Source: a virus
Reading direction: 5' to 3' (one strand)
Length of the DNA: 64,000 bases
IMG/VR virus record: IMGVR_UViG_3300036893_000049
Coordinates: 21,260 to 85,259 of that record
Shown one piece after another: positions 3,589 to 44,942 of this stretch. Position 1 is the stretch's first letter. Each line of letters opens with the position of its first letter. Position numbers and translations under genes: made by a program. The notes under the pieces were generated by a model. It had not been told where the DNA came from. It worked only from the letters and a program-made list of their open reading frames with translations, and did no database searches.

Positions 3589-3645
3589 CTTCGTCTCTCC
3601 TGTTTGGGATGGCGGGGAAGCCGGACGGGGCCGGAGCCCCGTTGT

Positions 3646-3852
3646 CTATGCTGACGCGAAGCCGACCATTTCGCCGCGCCAGTAGTTGGCTGTCGCCGCG
3701 AAAAATGCCGCGTTATCCCGCGCCTGTTTCGCGTGTCCGGGTTGTCCTTCTTCGATTGCCAGGACGGCGCGGCCCTCGGCATGGGCTGCCCAGAGATCGT
3801 ATTGAGCGATCCATGCCGGGACGCGATCAAGGTTGATTTCGTTGAGTGTCAT
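3646..3852 (-). CDS. first gene of the leftward accessory operon
   Basis: AGGAGG RBS, ATG 3852. Confidence 0.65.
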   Translation of the reverse strand: MTLNEINLDRVPAWIAQYDLWAAHAEGRAVLAIEEGQPGHAKQARDNAAFFAATANYWRGEMVGFASA

Positions 3853-4003
3853 CTCATCCTCCTATCCAAAACCCCAGGACGATCCGGGGGCTTGAGAGAG
3901 TAGGCTGTCCGGGAGGTCCCGATCTTGAAGCAGGCGTTAATCCTGCGAACGATCCGGGAGGCCCGATCGCCTGTCGTCCGGCGATAGGGGGAATGTAGCG
4001 AAA

Positions 4004-4064
4004 GCGTATTGCGCCGTCAATTGCGCTTTTCGCATACCTGTATTGCGCTAGGCGTATTGCGCTA
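4004..4064. promoter_or_regulatory. four ATTGCGC direct repeats, probable RHH operator in a divergent intergenic region
   Basis: ATTGCGC at 4008, 4020, 4042 and 4056, directly upstream of an RHH gene. Confidence 0.55.
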
Positions 4065-4091
4065 CCGCGTCCGAATCGGTATGGTCCGCCC

Positions 4092-4337
4092 ATGAGCAAC
4101 GCCCAGATCACCCGAAACACACGCAACCTCACGATGCGCCTCCCGCTCGACCTCTATAATAAGGCGCGGGAGAAGGCGTCTGGGGGTAGCCTGAAGCCGG
4201 TCATCGAGGCTGGACTCCGTGAGGCGTGGGATATGCCGGTGGTAATATCTGGTGAGGGGGCTGACACGTCGGTGAGCGAACCTACTGAGGAAATCGAGGT
4301 CACGTCCGAGATGATCGAGGCGCGGAAGGTGGGATGA
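4092..4337 (+). CDS. Arc/CopG-like ribbon-helix-helix regulator
   Basis: RNLTMRLPLDLYNKAREKA...LKPVIEAGLRE pattern. Confidence 0.7.
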   Translation: MSNAQITRNTRNLTMRLPLDLYNKAREKASGGSLKPVIEAGLREAWDMPVVISGEGADTSVSEPTEEIEVTSEMIEARKVG

Positions 4338-5560
4338 GGGTGGTCATGCAGGCCACGAAAGGACGGCTCTACGGCGGCGGACTCGGAACCGTCGCGCGGA
4401 TCGGCGGCCAGTGCCGGGCCGTGTGGAACCTGTTCGTTGCGGAGAGCGCCGAACGCTATAAGGCCGAGGGCAAGTTCGTTTTCTATGCTGAAATGTCGGC
4501 TCGGCTGCCGAAGTTGTTGAAGGAAGACGCGCGCCTTGCCGGGTTGCCGCACCGCGCGGCACAGATGACCGTGCAGAAGCTGGATCGGGCGTTGCGCGAC
4601 TGCGCCAAGAGCAAGGGGAAGGCGCGACGCGGCTTTCCGCGCTTCAAGAAATACGCTGACAGGTCCGACGCTTTTTCGTTCGTTGGCCGCGAGGTCCGCG
4701 TTGAACCGGGTCGCATCCGACTGCCGAAGGTCGGCTGGCTTCGCGTGCGCGGCATGACCTTGCCCGATGGCGCTGACATGAAGCAGGTCGCCGTGACGCA
4801 AGAGCCGAATGGCTGGCACGTCTCCATCCAGTTCGAAGCCGCGCCGAAGCTCTACGCCGTGCCGACGCTTCCTGCGGTCGGTATCGACGGCGGCTTGATC
4901 CATCTGGCGACACTGAGCGACGGCACCCTCATTCCGCATCCACGGCTTGCCAGGAAGGCCGCGAAGCGGCTGCGCCGGTTGAACCGGGAACGCGATCGGC
5001 GGCGCAAGGGCAGCGTGAACCGCCGACGCACCGTGGCCAAACTCGGGCGCGCACATCGCGCGCTGGGCAACGCCCGCAAGGATGCGATGCACAAGGCCAC
5101 CCGGAAACTGGTGGACACATACGGCGGCTTCGCCGTCGAGGATTTGAGCCTGCGAGGCATGATGCGGACCCGGATGGCGGGTTCGCTGGCCGATGCTGGG
5201 CTGGGAGAGTTCGTCAGGACGCTCCACTACAAGGCCGATTGGGCGGGGCGAACGTGGCACGTTCACGGGCGCTTCGAACGCAGCACGGGCGTCTGTCCGG
5301 ACTGCGGCCAAGTCGGCGGCAAGCTTGCCCTGTCCGTCAGGAGTTGGGTTTGCGATAGCTGCGGCGCGGTTCACGATCGCGACGTTGCCGCCGCCAGGGT
5401 GATCCTGGCTGGCGCGGTACTGCCAGTGGGGCAGGAACCGTCGGCTGCGATGCCGAGAAAGCGAGGCGCTGCCGCTCGTGGCGGGGATCGGGCATCCGCT
5501 CGGTCTAGTCACGGCGGGCCACCTCCGAATGTTGCCGATGCTCTGCCGGAGGCTGCATGA
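4334..5560 (+). CDS. tnpB: IS200/IS605-family RNA-guided endonuclease TnpB (copy 1)
   Basis: GFPRFK; RuvC motifs GIDGG, AVEDL, HDRDVAAA; zinc finger CPDCG/CDSCG; no tnpA adjacent. Confidence 0.95.
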   Translation: MRVVMQATKGRLYGGGLGTVARIGGQCRAVWNLFVAESAERYKAEGKFVFYAEMSARLPKLLKEDARLAGLPHRAAQMTVQKLDRALRDCAKSKGKARRGFPRFKKYADRSDAFSFVGREVRVEPGRIRLPKVGWLRVRGMTLPDGADMKQVAVTQEPNGWHVSIQFEAAPKLYAVPTLPAVGIDGGLIHLATLSDGTLIPHPRLARKAAKRLRRLNRERDRRRKGSVNRRRTVAKLGRAHRALGNARKDAMHKATRKLVDTYGGFAVEDLSLRGMMRTRMAGSLADAGLGEFVRTLHYKADWAGRTWHVHGRFERSTGVCPDCGQVGGKLALSVRSWVCDSCGAVHDRDVAAARVILAGAVLPVGQEPSAAMPRKRGAAARGGDRASARSSHGGPPPNVADALPEAA

Positions 5561-38286: not shown

Positions 38287-39648
38287 TCAGTCTTTCCAAG
38301 GATCATCGATTCCGTCTCCCGCCATCGCCACGGCGAATGGCCGTAGTGTGTGCAGCACTCGCGTCGAGGCCGCGTGGTGAGCCAGCACTTCCGGCAAACG
38401 GCGATAAGCCATCGGACTTTCGTCCAGACCGCCGCCCGCCAGTAACACGCCGCGATCTTGCAACCACGCCTCCATCTGGGTACGGGTGAACGTGCGAATC
38501 GCTTGTTTCCGCCCGAATAATCGCCCGGCACCGTGGACCGTCGAGTAGAGCGCATCCTTCGCTTCTTGGCAGTCAACACCTTCCAAGATCACAGCGTCAT
38601 CGCCCATGGAGCCGCCAACAAAGCCCTTTTGGCCGGGGAAGGCTGGAGTTGCACCTTTTCGAACTACCCAGAGATCACGGCCGTTATGCGTTTCGCGCCA
38701 CGCGTAATTATGATGGTTGTGAACCATTTCGGTCACTGAGCCGCCGATGATCTGGCGAACACGTTCAACCACCCATTCACGACCGGCGTAAGAGTACCTT
38801 CCGGCCAATTGCATCGCCGCGATATAACGGCGGCCGACTTCACTATCTTCATCGACCACGGCGGGTGCAACGTTCATGCCGTCTTTCCCGCCAGCCGCTT
38901 TCAGATATCGTGTCGCGCTGGTGTGACCGAAACCGCGAGAACCGAAGTGGACGCCGATCCAAACGAAATCGTCTTCATCTCGCATGAGATCGACATAATG
39001 GTTGCCTGATCCGACCGTTCCTAGCTGTGCGACGGCTTTTGAGCGGTATTCACCCATGTCGGATTCGCGCCATGCGTCGCTGTCGTCAAAGAGTTCATGT
39101 TCCACGCGCTCCTCATTGGTGCGACCGACGCCGAATGAAATAACCTTGCGGACATCTTCAAGGATTGGATGGATACGATCCTGGATATCGGAAAATGGCG
39201 TGTCCAGGCGAACGGCCATGTTGCCGCATCCGATATCGAAACCGACACCGGAAATGCTGATCTGCTTTTCATAAGCGATCACGCCCCCAACAGGTTGCGC
39301 GTAACCAAGATGACCGTCCGCGCAAATCACGCCCTTAACCGCGTTGCCGATAGCCATGCAGTTTCGCATCTGAGCGATGGTGTTGGGATCGTGATCGCCG
39401 AAGATCGTCAGAGGACTGTCGCGGAATCGTTCCTCCTGCGGGCGCAGATTGACGATGCTGGCCGCGAGGTCCGCTGCCTCCCTGGCGTTTTGCGCCGAAC
39501 GGGCAGCATCGCGGAAATCGCACCATGCGGGCATACCCCGCTCACTGCCGGGTTTCGCGACACGCGAATCCGGATCGATGCCTTTAGCCTGGCACATTTC
39601 GCGTGCGGCGACTTCCAATGGATCGGCTCGACGTGTTGAAACAGACAT
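38287..39648 (-). CDS. rtcB: RtcB-family RNA ligase with N-terminal extension
   Basis: ADGHLGY, VGFDIGCG, GTVGSGNHY, HFGSRGFG, HNHHNY, RKGATPA, HGAGR, DESPMAYR. Confidence 0.95.
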   Translation of the reverse strand: MSVSTRRADPLEVAAREMCQAKGIDPDSRVAKPGSERGMPAWCDFRDAARSAQNAREAADLAASIVNLRPQEERFRDSPLTIFGDHDPNTIAQMRNCMAIGNAVKGVICADGHLGYAQPVGGVIAYEKQISISGVGFDIGCGNMAVRLDTPFSDIQDRIHPILEDVRKVISFGVGRTNEERVEHELFDDSDAWRESDMGEYRSKAVAQLGTVGSGNHYVDLMRDEDDFVWIGVHFGSRGFGHTSATRYLKAAGGKDGMNVAPAVVDEDSEVGRRYIAAMQLAGRYSYAGREWVVERVRQIIGGSVTEMVHNHHNYAWRETHNGRDLWVVRKGATPAFPGQKGFVGGSMGDDAVILEGVDCQEAKDALYSTVHGAGRLFGRKQAIRTFTRTQMEAWLQDRGVLLAGGGLDESPMAYRRLPEVLAHHAASTRVLHTLRPFAVAMAGDGIDDPWKD

Positions 39649-39669
39649 AACTCTCTCCTTCTATAAGGC

Positions 39670-39745
39670 ATCGCCGCACGGGACTCGAACCCGCCGCCTA
39701 TCCGTTAGTGGCCACTGTGCAGTTCCGACGTTTGCACACGGCGAT
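39670..39745 (-). ncRNA. tRNA-like structured element between the nucleotidyltransferase and rtcB
   Basis: Closing stem ATCGCCGT/GCGGCGAT, T arm GCGGG-TTCGAGT-CCCGT, stem GTGCA/TGCAC; no canonical anticodon arm. Confidence 0.6.
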
Positions 39746-39751
39746 ATGGGA

Positions 39752-40732
39752 TCACAAAATCGCGGTTCGATAAGCATCCTTCACGATAGCGTCGATCACG
39801 CCGTGGTCCGGCGTCTCGGGCAGTGCGGATACCTCCTCCTCTGCTTCTACTCGTTCCAACAAATCCTCGATTTCCTCCGCGACGGCGGCATAGGGCAGTT
39901 CGCCTTTCTTGATCGCCAGAATATGCTTGGCGTTCAGCAGTGGAAAGGTGATATGGCCAGATCGCAACAGTTCCAGAGCCTCGCCGCCAACTCGCACCGC
40001 ATGAGAAAGCGCCTTCCAATCGACGTTTTCGTTACGTTCGGCCTGCAACGCGCGGGCGCCATATTCGTCCAGTAGTCGAACATAGATCGCGCGCGTATCC
40101 TTCAACGATGTGAAGAACGGTGCCTTACGGTTACAGCATTCAAGATGCGGGATCGGATCGGGACGGCTTGGATGCGGGATAAATATGATCGCGGTATGAT
40201 CGAGTTTATGTTCCGCGATGAACGTAGGCAGCGTGTCTGCCGCGATCTCCAACTTTGCCAGATGCCCGTATTCCATGATGGCCTGGTCAAACCAATTCAC
40301 GATCTCGCGGGCGGCATGAACGCGCGAGCCTTTGATTCCATATTTGTTTGCCTGAGTTCGGCAATAGCCAATGAAGCTGGCGGCACGACGGCTCAACAAC
40401 TGATGGCGACAATCCCAGATACGGCCCCAGATCGGATCGGGATCGCATGTCATAGCCCATCGTGGCGCAAACAGCATGTCCAGAGCAACGGTCTGCCCTT
40501 CTGCCAGCAATGACAAATACCGATGGAGCGCATAAGCCTCCCGGTCGATATCGCCCGCGACGTTCTTTTCGCCAGTCTGCTTGGGTCGTTTGTCTGTTAC
40601 CGTCGCTTTAACGCGTTGCAATAGGATCGCGTCCGCGTCTGGCACAAACACGGTTTTGTAATCCACGTCCGACGCTGGCGTGGACGTGCCGTAGAGGTGC
40701 GAGCCAAACTTGATCTCGACAAGGGTTTTCAC
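39752..40732 (-). CDS. Pol-beta superfamily nucleotidyltransferase (RlaP/Nuc-transf-like)
   Basis: GSHLYGTSTPASDVDY, DWKALSHAVR, ILAIKKG. Confidence 0.9.
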   Translation of the reverse strand: MKTLVEIKFGSHLYGTSTPASDVDYKTVFVPDADAILLQRVKATVTDKRPKQTGEKNVAGDIDREAYALHRYLSLLAEGQTVALDMLFAPRWAMTCDPDPIWGRIWDCRHQLLSRRAASFIGYCRTQANKYGIKGSRVHAAREIVNWFDQAIMEYGHLAKLEIAADTLPTFIAEHKLDHTAIIFIPHPSRPDPIPHLECCNRKAPFFTSLKDTRAIYVRLLDEYGARALQAERNENVDWKALSHAVRVGGEALELLRSGHITFPLLNAKHILAIKKGELPYAAVAEEIEDLLERVEAEEEVSALPETPDHGVIDAIVKDAYRTAIL

Positions 40733-41490: not shown

Positions 41491-41982
41491 TCATACCGCC
41501 CCCATCTTTCTCAAAAAATCCCGGGCGACCTCCGCGACCGGCAGCGGGTGAGTGGCCCCCTCCGCTACATCCGGCTTGCTCCGGTCCTTAGCCGTATGCT
41601 CGATCAGACCAAGTATCGATTGTTCCCGCAACGCTTCACGCAGTGCAGGTGGCGAAATGTCATTGGCCTTGGCGAGACCATTAGATATGGTACGAAATCC
41701 CCGCCGCGCCTGACTACGAATACGGGCACGAGCCGTTTGACCGATTTTGTGCAGATCGTCAGGAACGACGCGTTTATATCCAACACGGCGCACGGAAGCG
41801 AATACCGCGCCATTTTCTCGTTCAACGACAAAAATCGCGCGATAAAGAAGATACCGGCATACGTTAATGTTCCGGCCGATTGCCTTACTGAAATCGTCGA
41901 ATGTCAACGTTTCGCCAAAAGGACAAGCGGCGAGAAGGTCCGCGAGGATGCGGGTGTCCTGGTGTAACTCCATGACGATCAT
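41491..41982 (-). CDS. hypothetical protein with winged-helix-like N-terminus, downstream of array B
   Basis: AGGAG RBS at the end of array B; GETLTFDDFSKAIG...SVRRVGYKRV. Confidence 0.7.
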   Translation of the reverse strand: MIVMELHQDTRILADLLAACPFGETLTFDDFSKAIGRNINVCRYLLYRAIFVVERENGAVFASVRRVGYKRVVPDDLHKIGQTARARIRSQARRGFRTISNGLAKANDISPPALREALREQSILGLIEHTAKDRSKPDVAEGATHPLPVAEVARDFLRKMGAV

Positions 41983-41999
41983 GGGAAGGCTCCTGTATT

Positions 42000-42074
42000 G
42001 TGTCGTGCTGTGCGGTGGTGTGGCGTGACGTGTCGTGCGGTGCCGTGGTGTGGAGTGGTGTGCTGTGGTGTGAT
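42000..42074 (-). repeat. array B: 15 units of invariant CAC plus variable NN (GTG-NN on +)
   Basis: + strand NN series: TC CT CG GT GC AC TC CG CC GT GA GT CT GT AT; GTG intact in all 15 units. Confidence 0.95.
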
Positions 42075-42080
42075 GATTTT

Positions 42081-42122
42081 GGCAGTCCCAACAGAAGCGA
42101 GAACGATTCCGTTGGGATTGCC
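42081..42122 (-). other. long hairpin 5' of array B
   Basis: GGCAATCCCAACGGAATCG-TTCT-CGCTTCTGTTGGGACTGCC. Confidence 0.8.
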
Positions 42123-42128
42123 GATGAT

Positions 42129-42143
42129 GTGCCGTGGCGTGGT
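42129..42143 (-). repeat. mini-array of 3 GTG-NN units right after the Cas7-like stop codon
   Basis: GTGCC GTGGC GTGGT. Confidence 0.7.
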
Positions 42144-42144
42144 A

Positions 42145-42738
42145 TCATGCAACCATCTGGCGATTATCCTGCCAGACCAGTTTATCCAGAACGAAGCGGC
42201 CATTGTGACCGCCATTTTGTGGCCGGAACTGGCCGATTCCAATAAAGAGGCCAGCAAGTTCCACCATGTCCCGGAAAACGGGCTCGACGATGATCGGGTC
42301 CAGGATGATGATTTCGAATGTCGATGACCATTCCCGAACCACGGGAAAGCGGCGCACGACTCGTTTGCCTGAACCCCGGACACCATCGGCGTTGGCTGAG
42401 ATCGTAACCATCATCGCCTCTGAGGGATCGATATTCAGGATTGGTGCGGCGGGGATCATCACGCCGCTGGTGAACTTGGCGGACCATGTGGCCTTCCCCT
42501 GGCCCGGGATTTGGATTTTTGAATATTTCGCCGCCGCGATCAGGCATTGGTGAAAACCGTGCGGTGGAATAATGATGGTTTTTTTGCCGTCGTGTTCCTC
42601 GATGGACAATTTGCTACGCCATGTCCTGGCGTCATAGGCATCTGGCGACTCGCCTTCGAGCCGCGGGTCATTGTGTTGCCGGGACTGACTGTACGGCGCG
42701 GTGCCACGGAGGGTCAGTTGAGCGATGGTGTATTGCAT
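42145..42738 (-). CDS. stand-alone Cas7/RAMP-like RNA-binding protein
   Basis: N-terminal strand QLTLRGTAPY; IIIPPHGFHQCLIAAA resembling the RAMP IPxxxxKG helix; C-terminal G-rich loop AGLFIGIGQFRPQNGGHNGRF; no other cas genes in the window. Confidence 0.75.
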   Translation of the reverse strand: MQYTIAQLTLRGTAPYSQSRQHNDPRLEGESPDAYDARTWRSKLSIEEHDGKKTIIIPPHGFHQCLIAAAKYSKIQIPGQGKATWSAKFTSGVMIPAAPILNIDPSEAMMVTISANADGVRGSGKRVVRRFPVVREWSSTFEIIILDPIIVEPVFRDMVELAGLFIGIGQFRPQNGGHNGRFVLDKLVWQDNRQMVA

Positions 42739-42755
42739 GGAAGGTTCCTTGGCTG

Positions 42756-42860
42756 GTGAAGTGATGTGTCGTGGAGTGGCGTGATGTGTCGTGGAGTGGC
42801 GTGGTGTGGCGTGGAGTGGCGTGGAGTGGCGTGGCGTGATGTGATGTGCGGCGCGGTGGC
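42756..42860 (-). repeat. array A: 21 units of invariant CAC plus variable NN (GTG-NN on +)
   Basis: + strand NN series: AA AT TC GA GC AT TC GA GC GT GC GA GC GA GC GC AT AT CG CG GC; one GCG variant at 42851. Confidence 0.95.
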
Positions 42861-42872
42861 CTCGCGGCCAGT

Positions 42873-42926
42873 TTCGTGATTACACGAATTGCCGGTTGAC
42901 TGTCAACCCATGATTACGGTAATCAT
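42873..42926. promoter_or_regulatory. divergent promoter/operator with three palindromes
   Basis: TTCGTG-ATTA-CACGAA; GGTTGAC-T-GTCAACC (TTGACA on -, TTGACT on +); ATGATTAC-G-GTAATCAT. Confidence 0.7.
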
Positions 42927-42931
42927 CGCCC

Positions 42932-43153
42932 ATGAGCCGAGAAATCTTGCTTCCCGAAGTTATCACCGTTCGGTTGCCAGCGGGCACACTTACCGCCCTG
43001 GATGCCTTATGTAAGACGGCTGAGCGGCGCGCGGATGTCGCTCGGGCGATTCTGGTGGGGGGAGTGGCGGAATCTCCCGCCCCTGACGCCGCCGGTTCCC
43101 GCTATCGACCCCGCCGGGCCGGGGCAACCACAGGGACCACGCCCCATGACTGA
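42932..43153 (+). CDS. ribbon-helix-helix regulator, probably leaderless
   Basis: VITVRLPAGTLTALDAL...RADVARAIL. Confidence 0.7.
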   Translation: MSREILLPEVITVRLPAGTLTALDALCKTAERRADVARAILVGGVAESPAPDAAGSRYRPRRAGATTGTTPHD

Positions 43154-43348
43154 CTCCCCGCCCCCCGTCGAGAGCGTCTGGCCCGACCATCTGACCTTAT
43201 GGTTTGGCCCCCGGCCCGACTCTGAGGATGGACGCGTCGAAGAGCCCGTAGAGCCGGATCGTGAGCCGGAACCCCGCCCAGACCGCGACGAGGATGGGCA
43301 TGTCGCGATGTGGACGCGGGAGCCGCAAGTCGAGCGGGGGGATGCGCC

Positions 43349-43762
43349 GTGACCAGTATCTGGGGCAAACAGGAAAAACAGTTCAGATTGCACCGGGCAC
43401 AGAACGGCCTTTGCGCGCTGTGCGGAGATGACCTGAAACTGGCCGAGGCGACTTTCGATCACATCATCCCGAAGTCGAAACACGGGCCTTCAACGATTGA
43501 TAACCTTCAACTGGCACATAGATCGTGCAACAACAAGAAGGGCGATAAGATTGTCGCGCCGCTCCAACTATCGGGGAAAATTCGCAAGCGCGTGTTGCAC
43601 GCGCTGGTGATGGAGCGGCTTTGCCGTCGAGACATTGACGAACGAAAGGGAAATTATATAGTTGATTCCCTTCGGCAATCTGGTAATATTGCCGGATCGG
43701 GTGGCGCTACCAACGCCAGTCCCGATCCTGACCTCGACGGAAGGTTACTCCGCGTTGGCTGA
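43349..43762 (+). CDS. HNH endonuclease; C-terminus altered by the insertion at 43649
   Basis: CALCG...TFDHIIPKSKHG...DNLQLAHRSCNNKKG. Confidence 0.9.
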   Translation: MTSIWGKQEKQFRLHRAQNGLCALCGDDLKLAEATFDHIIPKSKHGPSTIDNLQLAHRSCNNKKGDKIVAPLQLSGKIRKRVLHALVMERLCRRDIDERKGNYIVDSLRQSGNIAGSGGATNASPDPDLDGRLLRVG

Positions 43763-44942
43763 CCCTATCGTAGCGACTCAGATGCTCACATGGAAGTGTC
43801 GTTTGCTCCCAAGCAAAGGCCAGCATGACAAATTGCGCGCTGCACTAAGCCATACCCGCGACCTCTACAATGCCGCCTTGGCTGAGCGCATCGACTGTTA
43901 CCGGAAAACCGGCAAAGGGCGCTCTTTTTTCGACCAGGCTAAGGGCCTTACCGAACTCCGCGCCGATCCGGGCTGGGCAACCTATTCTGTCGCCATGCAA
44001 CGCTGGCCGCTGAAACAAGTCGATCTTGCCTTCGCCGCCTTCTTTCGACGCATCAAGGCGCGGGACGGAAAAGCCGGATTTCCGCGATTTCGGGGCCGCG
44101 AATGGTTCAAGACGTTCGGTTTTTCGGATCGCGGCGGCTGGCGCGTGGACGGCAACCGGCTGCGGCTGAAGGGCATAGGGTCTGTTCGTATTCACCTCCA
44201 TCGCCCCCTCCCTTCTGTGCCAATCGCCTGTAAGGTGAAACGCGAGGGCCGGAATTGGTATGCGCTGCTGACCGTCGAGACGCCTTGCGCGGCCTTCCAC
44301 CCCGGCCCGGCTGTCGGAATCGACATGGGCATCACGACCATGGCGGCGCTTTCGACCGGCGAACTGATCGCCAACGCACGCCCAGTCAAGCGGGCTGAGA
44401 GAGAAATGCGGAGACGCCAGAGACAGATCGCGCGATGCAAGAGAGGATCGAATCGTCGCCGCGAGGTCAAGGCGCGGGTGGCATCGCTGCACGCCAAGAT
44501 CACCCGGACGCGCGAAACGCATCTGCATCAGGTGTCGGCATCGCTCACGGCCCGGTTCGGCACGATTGCCATCGAGAAGTTGAACGTCAAGGGCCTGGCT
44601 GGCGGAATGCTCGCCAAGCAGGTCAATGACGTTGCATGGGGTCGCTTCATAGGTATGCTGCGCTATAAGGCTGCAAGGGCCGGTGGCACAGTGATTGAGG
44701 TTGATCCTCGCGGAACAAGTCAGACCTGCCCTGAGTGCGGCGTCATCAAGAAAAAGGAACTCTCGCAACGCGTCCACCGATGCGATTGCGGCTGTATCCT
44801 TGATCGCGATGTCGCCGCTGCGAAGGTCATTCTAATCCGGGCCGGGAATGGTCCGGGAGGCCGCAACGCTGGTGCTACAAGGCGTGGTCTCGAAAAGATA
44901 TGCGAGGCTGCCTGATGTCAGGTAGTCAAGTATATAATTCCC
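43649..44942 (+). mobile_element. non-autonomous element with IS1595-type ends carrying only tnpB
   Basis: 17-bp TIRs GGAAATTATATAGTTGA / GGGAATTATATACTTGA (15/17 identical); AACGAAAG duplicated at 43641-43648 and 44943-44950. Confidence 0.85.
43755..44915 (+). CDS. tnpB: TnpB RNA-guided endonuclease (copy 2); TTG start inferred
   Basis: LYNAALAER, GFPRFR, GIDMG, IAIEKL, TSQTCPECG, CDCG, DRDVAAA. Confidence 0.95.
   Translation: MADPIVATQMLTWKCRLLPSKGQHDKLRAALSHTRDLYNAALAERIDCYRKTGKGRSFFDQAKGLTELRADPGWATYSVAMQRWPLKQVDLAFAAFFRRIKARDGKAGFPRFRGREWFKTFGFSDRGGWRVDGNRLRLKGIGSVRIHLHRPLPSVPIACKVKREGRNWYALLTVETPCAAFHPGPAVGIDMGITTMAALSTGELIANARPVKRAEREMRRRQRQIARCKRGSNRRREVKARVASLHAKITRTRETHLHQVSASLTARFGTIAIEKLNVKGLAGGMLAKQVNDVAWGRFIGMLRYKAARAGGTVIEVDPRGTSQTCPECGVIKKKELSQRVHRCDCGCILDRDVAAAKVILIRAGNGPGGRNAGATRRGLEKICEAA

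What the first reader, a model, noticed from the sequence alone, without database searches (positions are those of the whole stretch)
41491..43153. Candidate non-CRISPR RNA-guided system: lone Cas7/RAMP-like gene embedded in CAC-NN pentamer arrays
Seen: on the - strand the order is promoter, GNRA hairpin, (NN-CAC)x21, RBS, 197-aa gene, 3-unit mini-array, long hairpin, (NN-CAC)x15, RBS, 163-aa gene, with a divergent RHH gene. The trinucleotide is almost invariant (35 of 36 units) while the dinucleotide varies, and I saw such arrays nowhere else in the window. Known: Cas7/RAMP proteins have an RRM fold with a C-terminal G-rich loop and polymerise along a guide RNA with fixed periodicity; this protein shows that motif layout (LTLRGTAP, IIIP...helix, GIGQFRPQNGGHNGRF). 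No cas1/2/3/5/6/8/10 and no repeat-spacer array are present. Inference: each subunit binds one CAC and displays NN, so the arrays are guides. From memory and unverified here, phage systems with alternating GGY/NN RNAs (VIPR) have been reported; this would be a relative with a different constant triplet.
Basis: partly seen in the sequence, partly recalled or inferred. Interest (0 to 1): 0.97.

Follow-up and report, generated by a model that had tools for sequence, protein, structure and literature searches.

The report
Phage VIPR system with CAC-NN guides
An 85-kb phage carries a real but already-described kind of CRISPR-like system (VIPR: a lone Cas7-like protein, a DNA-binding helper and guide RNAs built of 5-base units), from a clade that uses C-A-C instead of the published G-G-pyrimidine as the fixed letters, and one protein residue tracks that letter change.

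Summary
On the - strand there are two CAC/NN pentamer arrays, 21 units at 42754-42858 and 15 units at 41998-42072. Each runs into the ribosome-binding site of a gene.

This is therefore a VIPR system, a class published in 2026 preprints. One of them already lists CAC/NN among non-canonical repeats, and this scan has already noted a C-N-C VIPR on other DNA.

Added here:
- About 90 homologous loci carry C-N-C/NN arrays on the coding strand of the RAMP gene.
- G.U wobble counts in conserved inter-array hairpins of relatives support sense-strand RNA there; this window lacks those elements.
- The G-loop residue at the position of SUSP1 D177 is Q in all 8 CAC-type loci and R in all 61 CGC/CTC-type loci. 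This rests on only two independent switches.
- NN content turns over between loci with identical proteins.

No target was found, and expression could not be tested.

Verdict: a genuine new member of a known kind, of moderate interest.

The parts
42877..42906 (-). Promoter-like element: TTGACA (42901-42906), then N16-18, then TGTAAT/TAATCA
   Evidence: Read. L007 has the same TTGACA-N17-TAATC arrangement. The consensus scanner did not call it because the -10 is weak. This is a candidate only.
42858..42869 (-). GGCC-GCGA-GGCC GNRA-capped hairpin at the 5' edge of array 1
   Evidence: It is not conserved in the closest CAC-type locus L007.
42754..42858 (-). Array 1, the candidate vrRNA and leader of vipr: 21 pentamers (20 CAC, 1 CGC) plus variable NN. 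It contains an internal 20-nt (4-unit) tandem duplication and ends 15 nt before the ATG.
   Evidence: (period 20, 4.4 copies).
42746..42750 (-). Shine-Dalgarno AAGGA of vipr
   Evidence: Arrays abut the start codon by 0-36 nt in most related loci.
42145..42738 (-). vipr: 197-aa Cas7-like RAMP with G-loop GIGQFRPQNGGHNGRF (Q170)
   Evidence: phrog_4652.
42127..42141 (-). Mini-array of three CAC/NN units directly after the vipr stop codon
42081..42122 (-). Hairpin with a 12-bp stem and 18-nt loop between the mini-array and array 2
   Evidence: On the sense strand the stem has one A.C mismatch (dG -29.4 for the intergenic region); on the antisense strand that position is G.U.
41998..42072 (-). 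Array 2, the candidate vrRNA and leader of vap: 15 CAC/NN units using 9 different dinucleotides. It ends in CACAA-TACAG-GAG, the CAC-clade terminal motif.
41990..41994 (-). Shine-Dalgarno AGGAG of vap
41491..41982 (-). vap: 163-aa accessory protein with an N-terminal winged helix and a long helical hairpin
   Evidence: AlphaFold2 pLDDT 89.7. OmpR/GntR-type wHTH matches at probability 0.99 over about 75 residues. hhalign to SUSP1 Vap1 gives 67%, E 5e-5. A homologue is present in 64 of 82 loci (window included), downstream of vipr in all but four.
42932..43153 (+). Divergent 73-aa ORF, RHH-like by pattern. It is a local neighbour, not a conserved part of the system.
   Evidence: No family hit. 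No homologue in any related locus.

Best explanation
The locus is a phage-encoded VIPR system. An operon on the - strand is transcribed from upstream of array 1. Its C/A-rich, unstructured CAC/NN tracts are bound by the 197-aa Vipr protein, one protomer per pentamer, so that CAC is held by the protein and the NN pairs are displayed. By homology with SUSP1 VIPR, the ribonucleoprotein then recognises double-stranded DNA of a competitor through gapped pairing and silences it, probably a rival phage, prophage or satellite in an alphaproteobacterial host. The winged-helix Vap helps in this.

Shown here:
- the arrays and the operon layout
- the RAMP fold
- homology to Vipr and Vap1
- the viral setting
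- conservation of C-N-C/NN arrays on the coding strand across about 90 loci
- sense-strand RNA structure in relatives
- covariation of residue 170 with the middle base

Inferred: RNA binding stoichiometry, DNA targeting, the skip rule and the biological target.

A clade-specific inference follows from each array running straight into a Shine-Dalgarno sequence. Filament assembly on the leader may also throttle translation of vipr and vap.
For: - **Arrays:** 28 pattern hits against 0 expected; 35 of 36 units are CAC.
- **Homology to Vipr:** profile against PDB 36pp_D 'SUSP1 Vipr protein', E 0.0033; hhalign 80%, E 1.4e-5 over 126 columns; global alignment with a shared G-x-G-X-[FWY]-R-P loop.
- **Vap:** wHTH, related to SUSP1 Vap1, and found in 64 of 82 loci, downstream of vipr in all but four.
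- **Phage setting:** TerL, portal, baseplate and tail fibre.
- **Family-wide arrays:** 3026 CGC and 371 CAC units on the coding strand in 81 loci, and again in 11 alphaproteobacterial-type genome loci.
- **Strand:** in SUSP1 the GGT/NN arrays are also on the vipr coding strand. Inter-array hairpins show 24 G.U against 1 A.C (type B) and 10 against 3 (type A) on the sense strand, with alifold -30.4 against -12.0 and -24.5 against -15.1. L061 has an intrinsic terminator after its downstream array.
- **Protein-RNA link:** Q at residue 170 in 8 of 8 CAC-type loci, and R in 50 of 50 plus 11 of 11 G/T-type loci. It is the only perfectly discriminating column.
- **Guide-like behaviour:** N4 and N5 are near uniform, with all 16 dinucleotides used. 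Loci with identical Vipr share as little as 7% of 5-unit NN words.
- **No self-target** in the phage genome, as reported for published VIPRs.
Against:
- No natural target was found under the 1-nt skip rule, so the skip rule is untested for this clade.
- The window's arrays lack the conserved structured 3' tail of type II vrRNAs and run into ribosome-binding sites.
- Array 1 carries an internal 4-unit duplication and low-complexity NN content, which is odd for a unique guide.
- The window's own long hairpin has an A.C mismatch on the sense strand that would be G.U on the antisense strand.
- The R/Q covariation rests on only two independent switches (sign test not significant).
- SUSP1's H17 loop is absent from this clade, so the SUSP1 contacts cannot simply be transferred.
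Confidence: 0.82

Rival explanations
1. The arrays act mainly in cis. They are Vipr-binding leaders that autoregulate translation of vipr and vap, or decoys, rather than trans-acting guides. This is especially likely for array 1.
For: Both arrays end 15-16 nt from a start codon, with the Shine-Dalgarno sequence directly after the last unit. This layout recurs in most loci, with gaps of 0-36 nt. Array 1 has a 20-nt internal duplication and low-complexity NN content. No targets were found. The satellite 'decoy' vrRNA concept exists in print.
Against: NN positions are near random and turn over quickly between loci with identical proteins, which a pure cis-operator does not need. Related loci carry up to 17 arrays, most of them not next to a gene. 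Array 2 has 9 different dinucleotides and no internal duplication. This reading is compatible with the main one as a second role.
Confidence: 0.12
2. The functional RNA is the antisense strand, G-U-G/NN. That is G-rich like the published GGY/NN, and each tract would be followed by a 3' hairpin tail.
For: On the + strand both arrays precede a hairpin, matching the tract-then-tail order of type II vrRNAs. The long hairpin gains a G.U pair on the + strand (-33.2 against -29.4). The published alternative motifs all contain G.
Against: SUSP1 arrays are co-oriented with vipr. Conserved inter-array hairpins in relatives show G.U on the sense strand and almost no A.C. The upstream arrays leave no room for a separate vipr promoter, so sense transcripts must contain them. 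L061 has a sense-strand terminator after its array. Arg with G/U and Gln with A is chemically sensible for the sense bases. The antisense array would fold on itself (-50.7 against -18.2 kcal/mol).
Confidence: 0.04
3. The repeats are DNA-level features with no RNA role, such as slippage microsatellites, iterons, or binding sites for the wHTH or RHH proteins.
For: Tandem Repeats Finder reports them as 5-, 10- and 20-nt tandem repeats. DNA-binding proteins are encoded next to them.
Against: Three positions are fixed and two are free across thousands of units in about 90 loci. The arrays have a fixed orientation relative to a RAMP gene. A RAMP G-loop residue covaries with the fixed base. The RAMP is homologous to a protein solved on such RNA.
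Confidence: 0.02

Closest known systems
Type II VIPR of Escherichia phage SUSP1 (Vipr + Vap1 + GGY/NN vrRNAs; bioRxiv 10.64898/2026.04.26.720920 and .720927; PDB 36pp)
   Same: Both are phage-borne and have a two-gene vipr-vap core without cas genes or a CRISPR array. Both have a Cas7-like protein of about 195 aa with a G-x-G-X-[FWY]-R-P G-loop, a wHTH-type helper, and 5-nt units with 3 fixed and 2 variable bases on the vipr coding strand, placed upstream and downstream of the genes.
   Different: - The fixed triplet is C-A-C (C-G/U-C in most relatives), not G-G-Y.
- The G-loop residue is Q/R instead of D177.
- The loop carrying SUSP1 H17 is deleted, and a QIPGQGKATW insertion is present.
- The arrays fuse to ribosome-binding sites instead of ending in a pseudoknotted tail.
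- Protein similarity is detectable only by profile methods.
Non-canonical VIPR arrays in the COMPASS/Evo-PIN survey (bioRxiv 10.64898/2026.10.21.760802)
   Same: That survey reports 21 clusters (6,318 sequences) of 5-nt arrays with non-GGY cores, naming GAC/NN and CAC/NN, next to Vipr-like folds. This locus fits that description.
   Different: The main text, as far as I read it, makes no strand test, does not link residues to the fixed base, and does not describe the CGC/CTC majority or the array-RBS fusion. Its figures and tables could not be read, so overlap cannot be excluded.
Class 1 CRISPR backbone subunits (Csm3, Cmr4, Cas7)
   Different: There are no repeat-spacer array and no cas5, cas6, cas8, cas10 or cas1-2 genes, and the period is 5 nt rather than 6. 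Sequence identity is 10-15%.

Membership tests
VIPR system | Vipr protein: a minimal RAMP (RRM core, thumb, G-loop) homologous to described Viprs | tested here: met
VIPR system | Tandem 5-nt repeats with a conserved trinucleotide alternating with hypervariable NN, flanking vipr | tested here: met
   There are 21 and 15 units. Fixed positions are 87-95% conserved and N4/N5 are near uniform across the clade. NN content turns over between identical proteins.
VIPR system | Conserved trinucleotide is GGY (or the published relaxed forms NNNGG, YNNNG, NNNNG) | tested here: not met
   The sense-strand core is CAC and contains no G. A later preprint accepts CAC/NN as a divergent VIPR, so this separates canonical from non-canonical members rather than excluding membership.
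VIPR system | Adjacent vap accessory gene predicted to interact with DNA | tested here: met
   The 163-aa protein is a wHTH. It matches SUSP1 Vap1 at 67%, E 5e-5 and is found in 64 of 82 loci.
VIPR system | Minimal locus without a CRISPR array or other cas genes, mostly viral or proviral | tested here: met
   The contig is a phage. No CRISPR-like repeat appears in the window. The flanking genes are RtcB, a nucleotidyltransferase, HNH and TnpB. Not every ORF of the contig was scanned for cas genes.
VIPR system | vrRNAs are expressed as roughly 100-nt RNAs and co-purify with Vipr | not testable with these tools
VIPR system | Repeat tract followed by an invariable structured 3' tail | tested here: inconclusive
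   The window's arrays end in a clade-conserved CACAA-xACAG-GA motif that merges with the Shine-Dalgarno sequence. The hairpins here lie 5' of the arrays. Relatives have conserved structured elements after most arrays.
VIPR system | Targets dsDNA by NN pairing with a 1-nt skip; natural targets lie in competing mobile elements | tested here: inconclusive
   There is no self-target. Nothing rose above the shuffled null in 532 kb of related loci. Exact 10-unit seeds gave 0 convincing hits. The one 26/30 match, L082, is compatible with chance. Searches that tolerate mismatches against large collections were not possible.
CRISPR-Cas class 1 effector | Repeat-spacer array and further cas genes (cas5/6/8/10, cas1-2) | tested here: not met
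   No such repeats were found. The neighbours have no cas assignments.

The most novel reading that the evidence does not exclude
In this clade a single G-loop residue sets the middle scaffold base: Arg for G/U and Gln for A. It sits at the position where SUSP1 uses Asp177 to read G1. VIPR scaffolds would then be re-codable, and mutually orthogonal Vipr/vrRNA pairs would exist in nature, so that co-infecting phages could not hijack each other's guides. In addition, the guide tracts double as translational leaders that let Vipr autoregulate its own operon.
Probability: 0.4. Interest if true: 0.62.

Novelty: new member of a known kind. Interest (0 to 1): 0.5.

Why it matters
VIPR is a months-old class, so well-documented divergent members help define what is essential to it: 5-nt periodicity, a 3+2 layout, a Vipr filament and a wHTH helper. 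They also show what is free to change, namely the identity of the fixed triplet and the tail.

The clade described here is large. It has more than 1,000 protein clusters and about 90 loci with arrays, mostly from phages and prophages of Alphaproteobacteria.

It offers a natural experiment: R against Q at one G-loop position tracks G/U against A in the scaffold. If confirmed, this gives a simple handle for building orthogonal VIPR tools. It also offers an explanation for how competing phages avoid guide theft, a conflict already described for SUSP1 satellites.

The locus itself does not open a new class.

Tried and rejected
- **Self-targeting.** Both arrays were scanned against the 85-kb phage genome at 0-3-nt skips. 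Only the arrays themselves matched.
- **Cross-targeting.** 218 guides from related loci were scanned against 532 kb (the phage plus all loci) at 0-2-nt skips. Nothing exceeded the shuffled guides.
- **Exact 10-unit seeds under the 1-nt skip rule.**
  - Viral contigs gave nothing for array 2 (both halves) or for the 3' half of array 1.
  - The 5' half of array 1 hit three GCC/TCC low-complexity sites that fail on extension, at 25-26 of 42.
  - Genome contigs gave nothing.
  - Metagenome contigs gave one site, L082, with a 26/30 NN match in a non-coding stretch of an ordinary-looking bacterial contig. About one seed hit is expected by chance, so it is not accepted.
- **Known ribozymes or RNAs.** Rfam found nothing in the window region or in the inter-array elements of relatives.
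- **Curated protein families.** Pfam and NCBIfam have none for Vipr, Vap or the 73-aa ORF.
- **RHH gene as part of the system.** Rejected: no homologue in any related locus.
- **More Q-type loci.** A degenerate DNA search to find more Q-type loci for a prospective test recovered only loci already held.
- **Direct BLASTP.** Vap against SUSP1 Vap1 finds nothing; only the profile comparison does.
Full report
**What is in the sequence**

- A perfect -35 hexamer (TTGACA, 42901-42906) is followed by a weak -10 element.
- A GGCC-GCGA-GGCC hairpin lies at 42858-42869.
- Array 1 has 21 pentamers (42754-42858; 20 CAC and 1 CGC).
- AAGGA and the ATG of a 197-aa ORF follow (42145-42738).
- After the stop codon come three more CAC units (42127-42141) and a hairpin with a 12-bp stem (42081-42122).
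- Array 2 has 15 pentamers (41998-42072).
- AGGAG and the ATG of a 163-aa ORF follow (41491-41982).

A four-unit CAC/NN pattern occurs 28 times, only inside these arrays, against 0 in 100 shuffles. The rest of the 85-kb contig has no further array. Array 1 contains a 20-nt (four-unit) tandem duplication. Array 2 uses nine different dinucleotides without block duplication.

**The proteins**

The 197-aa protein has no Pfam or NCBIfam family, only phrog_4652 of unknown function. It belongs to a large family: 1,037 clusters at E<=0.001, all labelled 'hypothetical'.

By sequence, the family profile finds one meaningful PDB chain: 36pp_D, 'SUSP1 Vipr protein' (E 0.0033). I fetched SUSP1 (NC_028808). 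hhalign then aligns 126 columns with its Vipr (80%, E 1.4e-5), and a multiple alignment is colinear from end to end, with a shared G-x-G-X-[FWY]-R-P glycine loop.

The 163-aa protein folds confidently (pLDDT 89.7) as a winged helix followed by two long helices. Its N-terminal 75 residues match OmpR/GntR-type DNA-binding domains. Its family profile matches SUSP1 Vap1 (67%, E 5e-5), although plain BLASTP does not.

The contig is a tailed phage, with a large terminase, portal, baseplate wedge and tail fibre. Its nearest terminase is that of Acetobacter phage phiAO1 at 49%.

**What is known**

VIPR systems were described in 2026. They combine a Vipr RAMP, a vap gene and vrRNAs of 9-16 YNNGG repeats. 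One protomer binds per repeat, the GGY bases are flipped into the protein, and the NN bases pair with dsDNA while skipping every third base. The result is transcriptional silencing of competing phages and satellites. Seven types are described, with relaxed motifs NNNGG, YNNNG and NNNNG.

A later survey of intergenic space reports 21 clusters with non-canonical cores, 'e.g. GAC/NN or CAC/NN', next to Vipr-like folds.

This scan has logged many VIPR loci and one C-(G/T/A)-C case on other DNA.

The class, and even the CAC core, are therefore in print. The locus is a member, not a new system.

**Relatives**

I fetched 80 IMG/VR loci and 11 loci from species-representative genomes that encode homologues at 42-69% identity. 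The genome loci come from Roseomonas, Hyphomicrobiales, Rhodobacteraceae, Paracoccus, Ancylobacter, Rhizobium and one Massilia.

Nearly all of these loci carry pentamer arrays flanking the gene, always as C-N-C/NN on the coding strand. There are 3026 CGC and 371 CAC units. In most loci the nearest upstream array ends 0-36 nt from the start codon and the first downstream array begins 1-15 nt after the stop. Some loci hold up to 17 arrays.

A vap homologue is present in 64 of 82 loci, window included. It lies downstream of vipr in all but four: upstream in L043, and on the opposite strand upstream in L061, L064 and L065. None of the other neighbours of the window locus, including the divergent 73-aa ORF, is conserved.

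Positions 1 and 3 of the unit are C in 92-95% of units. Position 2 is A in 87% of units in the CAC-type loci, and G (71%) or T (17%) in the others. Positions 4 and 5 are near uniform, with all 16 dinucleotides used.

Loci whose Vipr proteins are identical can share as little as 7% of their five-unit NN words. Pairs at 90-99.9% protein identity share 8% on average. Some of this may reflect truncated contigs. This is the behaviour of a fixed scaffold carrying exchangeable information.

**Which strand**

This matters because the antisense would read G-Y-G/NN, closer to the published motif. Five observations favour the sense strand.
- In SUSP1 the GGT/NN tracts lie on the vipr coding strand.
- Upstream arrays leave room only for a ribosome-binding site, so the vipr mRNA must include them.
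- L061 has an intrinsic terminator right after its downstream array on the sense strand.
- Two families of conserved inter-array hairpins in relatives were tested for wobble pairs. On the sense strand they show 24 G.U against 1 A.C (type B, 24 sequences) and 10 against 3 (type A). RNAalifold energies are -30.4 against -12.0 and -24.5 against -15.1 for sense against antisense.
- The sense array RNA is nearly unstructured (-18 kcal/mol for 151 nt), whereas the antisense would fold on itself (-51).

One observation points the other way. The window's own long hairpin has an A.C mismatch on the sense strand that becomes G.U on the antisense.

**A residue that tracks the scaffold base**

I sorted loci by the dominant middle base. 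The residue aligned with SUSP1 D177 is Gln in all 8 CAC-type loci and Arg in all 50 G/T-type viral loci, and Arg again in all 11 genome loci. In SUSP1, D177 hydrogen-bonds G1 of GGY. It is the only perfectly discriminating alignment column. Residue 17, in the N-terminal loop, discriminates partially.

On a tree built without the G-loop columns, the CAC type needs two changes: one clade of seven that includes the window, plus L065 in a distant clade. Q follows both. Two events cannot reach significance.

The pairing is nonetheless chemically sensible. Arg donates to the O6/N7 of G or the O4 of U, and Gln pairs with the N6/N7 of A; this rests on established knowledge of protein-base recognition, not on a test here.

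More distant Viprs have Asp or Glu at this position together with a G-first core:
- SUSP1, GGT
- Pseudomonas phage LESphi2, GGC
- Gordonia phage Ecliptus, GGC
- Listonella phage phiHSIC, GCA

The register is unresolved. D177 reads the first fixed base, whereas here the covarying base is the second, and the SUSP1 loop that carries H17 is deleted in this clade.

**Array ends**

Arrays of the G/T type end in a conserved ...CGCAA-CGCAA-CG motif. Arrays of the CAC type end in ...CACAA-CACAG-GA, whether or not a gene follows. Array 2 of the window fits this pattern (CACAA-TACAG-GAG). Where a gene follows, the AGGA serves as its Shine-Dalgarno sequence.

This suggests a fixed 3' handle in place of the type II tail. 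It also raises the possibility that a Vipr filament on the leader occludes the ribosome-binding site. Both points are inference.

**Targets**

There is no self-match in the phage genome at any skip. No signal rose above shuffled guides when 218 guides of the clade were scanned against all DNA held.

[quoted passage not shown] - viral contigs: 0, 0 and 0 hits, plus three low-complexity false hits
- genome contigs: 0 hits
- metagenome contigs: one hit that extends to 26/30, in a non-coding stretch of an ordinary-looking bacterial contig. About one seed hit is expected by chance, so I do not accept it.

The target and the skip rule of this clade remain open. Expression data could not be obtained.

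**Verdict**

The locus is a bona fide non-canonical VIPR system (vipr, vap and two CAC/NN arrays) on a phage of a probable alphaproteobacterial host. It is a new member of a known, very recently described kind.

The incremental value lies in four points:
- the size and uniformity of the C-N-C clade
- the evidence for the transcribed strand
- the R/Q against G(U)/A covariation
- the array-RBS fusion

Noticed in passing
L097 (Listonella phage phiHSIC, AY772740) 1575-2473: ORF22 is a Vipr homologue (G-loop GFGDFRP). It is followed by three arrays with a G-C-A/NN core. The annotated ORF21 on the opposite strand lies on top of the arrays and is probably a mis-call. This looks like an unrecognised non-canonical VIPR in a phage genome deposited about 2005.
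   Followed up: partly
L095 (Gordonia phage Ecliptus gp19) and L096 (Pseudomonas phage LESphi2 P21_9): Both 'hypothetical proteins' are Vipr homologues with GGC/NN arrays. In Ecliptus the arrays lie downstream and the G-loop is GVGEWRP. In LESphi2 they lie upstream and the G-loop is GLCDYRP.
   Followed up: partly
L009 2051-4369; L005, L006, L008, L010, L011; L001 4674-6079: Two families of conserved, strongly structured elements of 50-70 nt separate successive arrays. Type B is a GNRA/UUCG-capped stem followed by a long bulged hairpin. Type A is a long hairpin ending in GGGTCGAGAG. They show compensatory and G.U changes and have no Rfam match. They are candidate vrRNA tails or processing sites. 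The published arrays of this layout use hammerhead ribozymes, which these are not.
   Followed up: partly
window 42761-42800; L007 2400-2450: Arrays contain exact internal duplications of whole-unit blocks: 4 units (20 nt) in the window and 5 units (25 nt) in L007. Arrays seem to grow by block duplication in register.
   Followed up: no
L059 about 2750-2810: A short GTG/NN tract, which is an inverted CAC/NN array, lies upstream of vipr on the opposite strand, in addition to four sense arrays downstream of vap.
   Followed up: no
window 43310-44915: An HNH endonuclease ORF (43310-43762) overlaps the start of a TnpB-type transposase ORF (43662-44915; phrog_506, E 1e-85). It looks like an IS insertion into or next to the HNH gene, right beside the VIPR locus.
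   Followed up: no
window 38287-40732: An RtcB RNA ligase (453 aa) and a phrog_388 nucleotidyltransferase (326 aa) lie on the same strand just downstream of the VIPR operon. They form an RNA-repair-type pair in a phage.
   Followed up: no
L088 (Massilia sp. MAG) 3604-4472: Eight arrays are dominated by C-T-C/NN (72 T against 36 G) with an Arg G-loop. Each array ends in the same CCTCAACGCGTCGC motif. This is the most T-rich scaffold seen in the clade.
   Followed up: no
L082 7716-7759 (metagenome contig Ga0316628_100008998): A 26/30 NN match to array 2 under the 1-nt skip rule lies in an intergenic region between an HlyD-type adaptor gene and a DUF72-like gene. It is judged compatible with chance, but it is the only near-match found.
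   Followed up: partly
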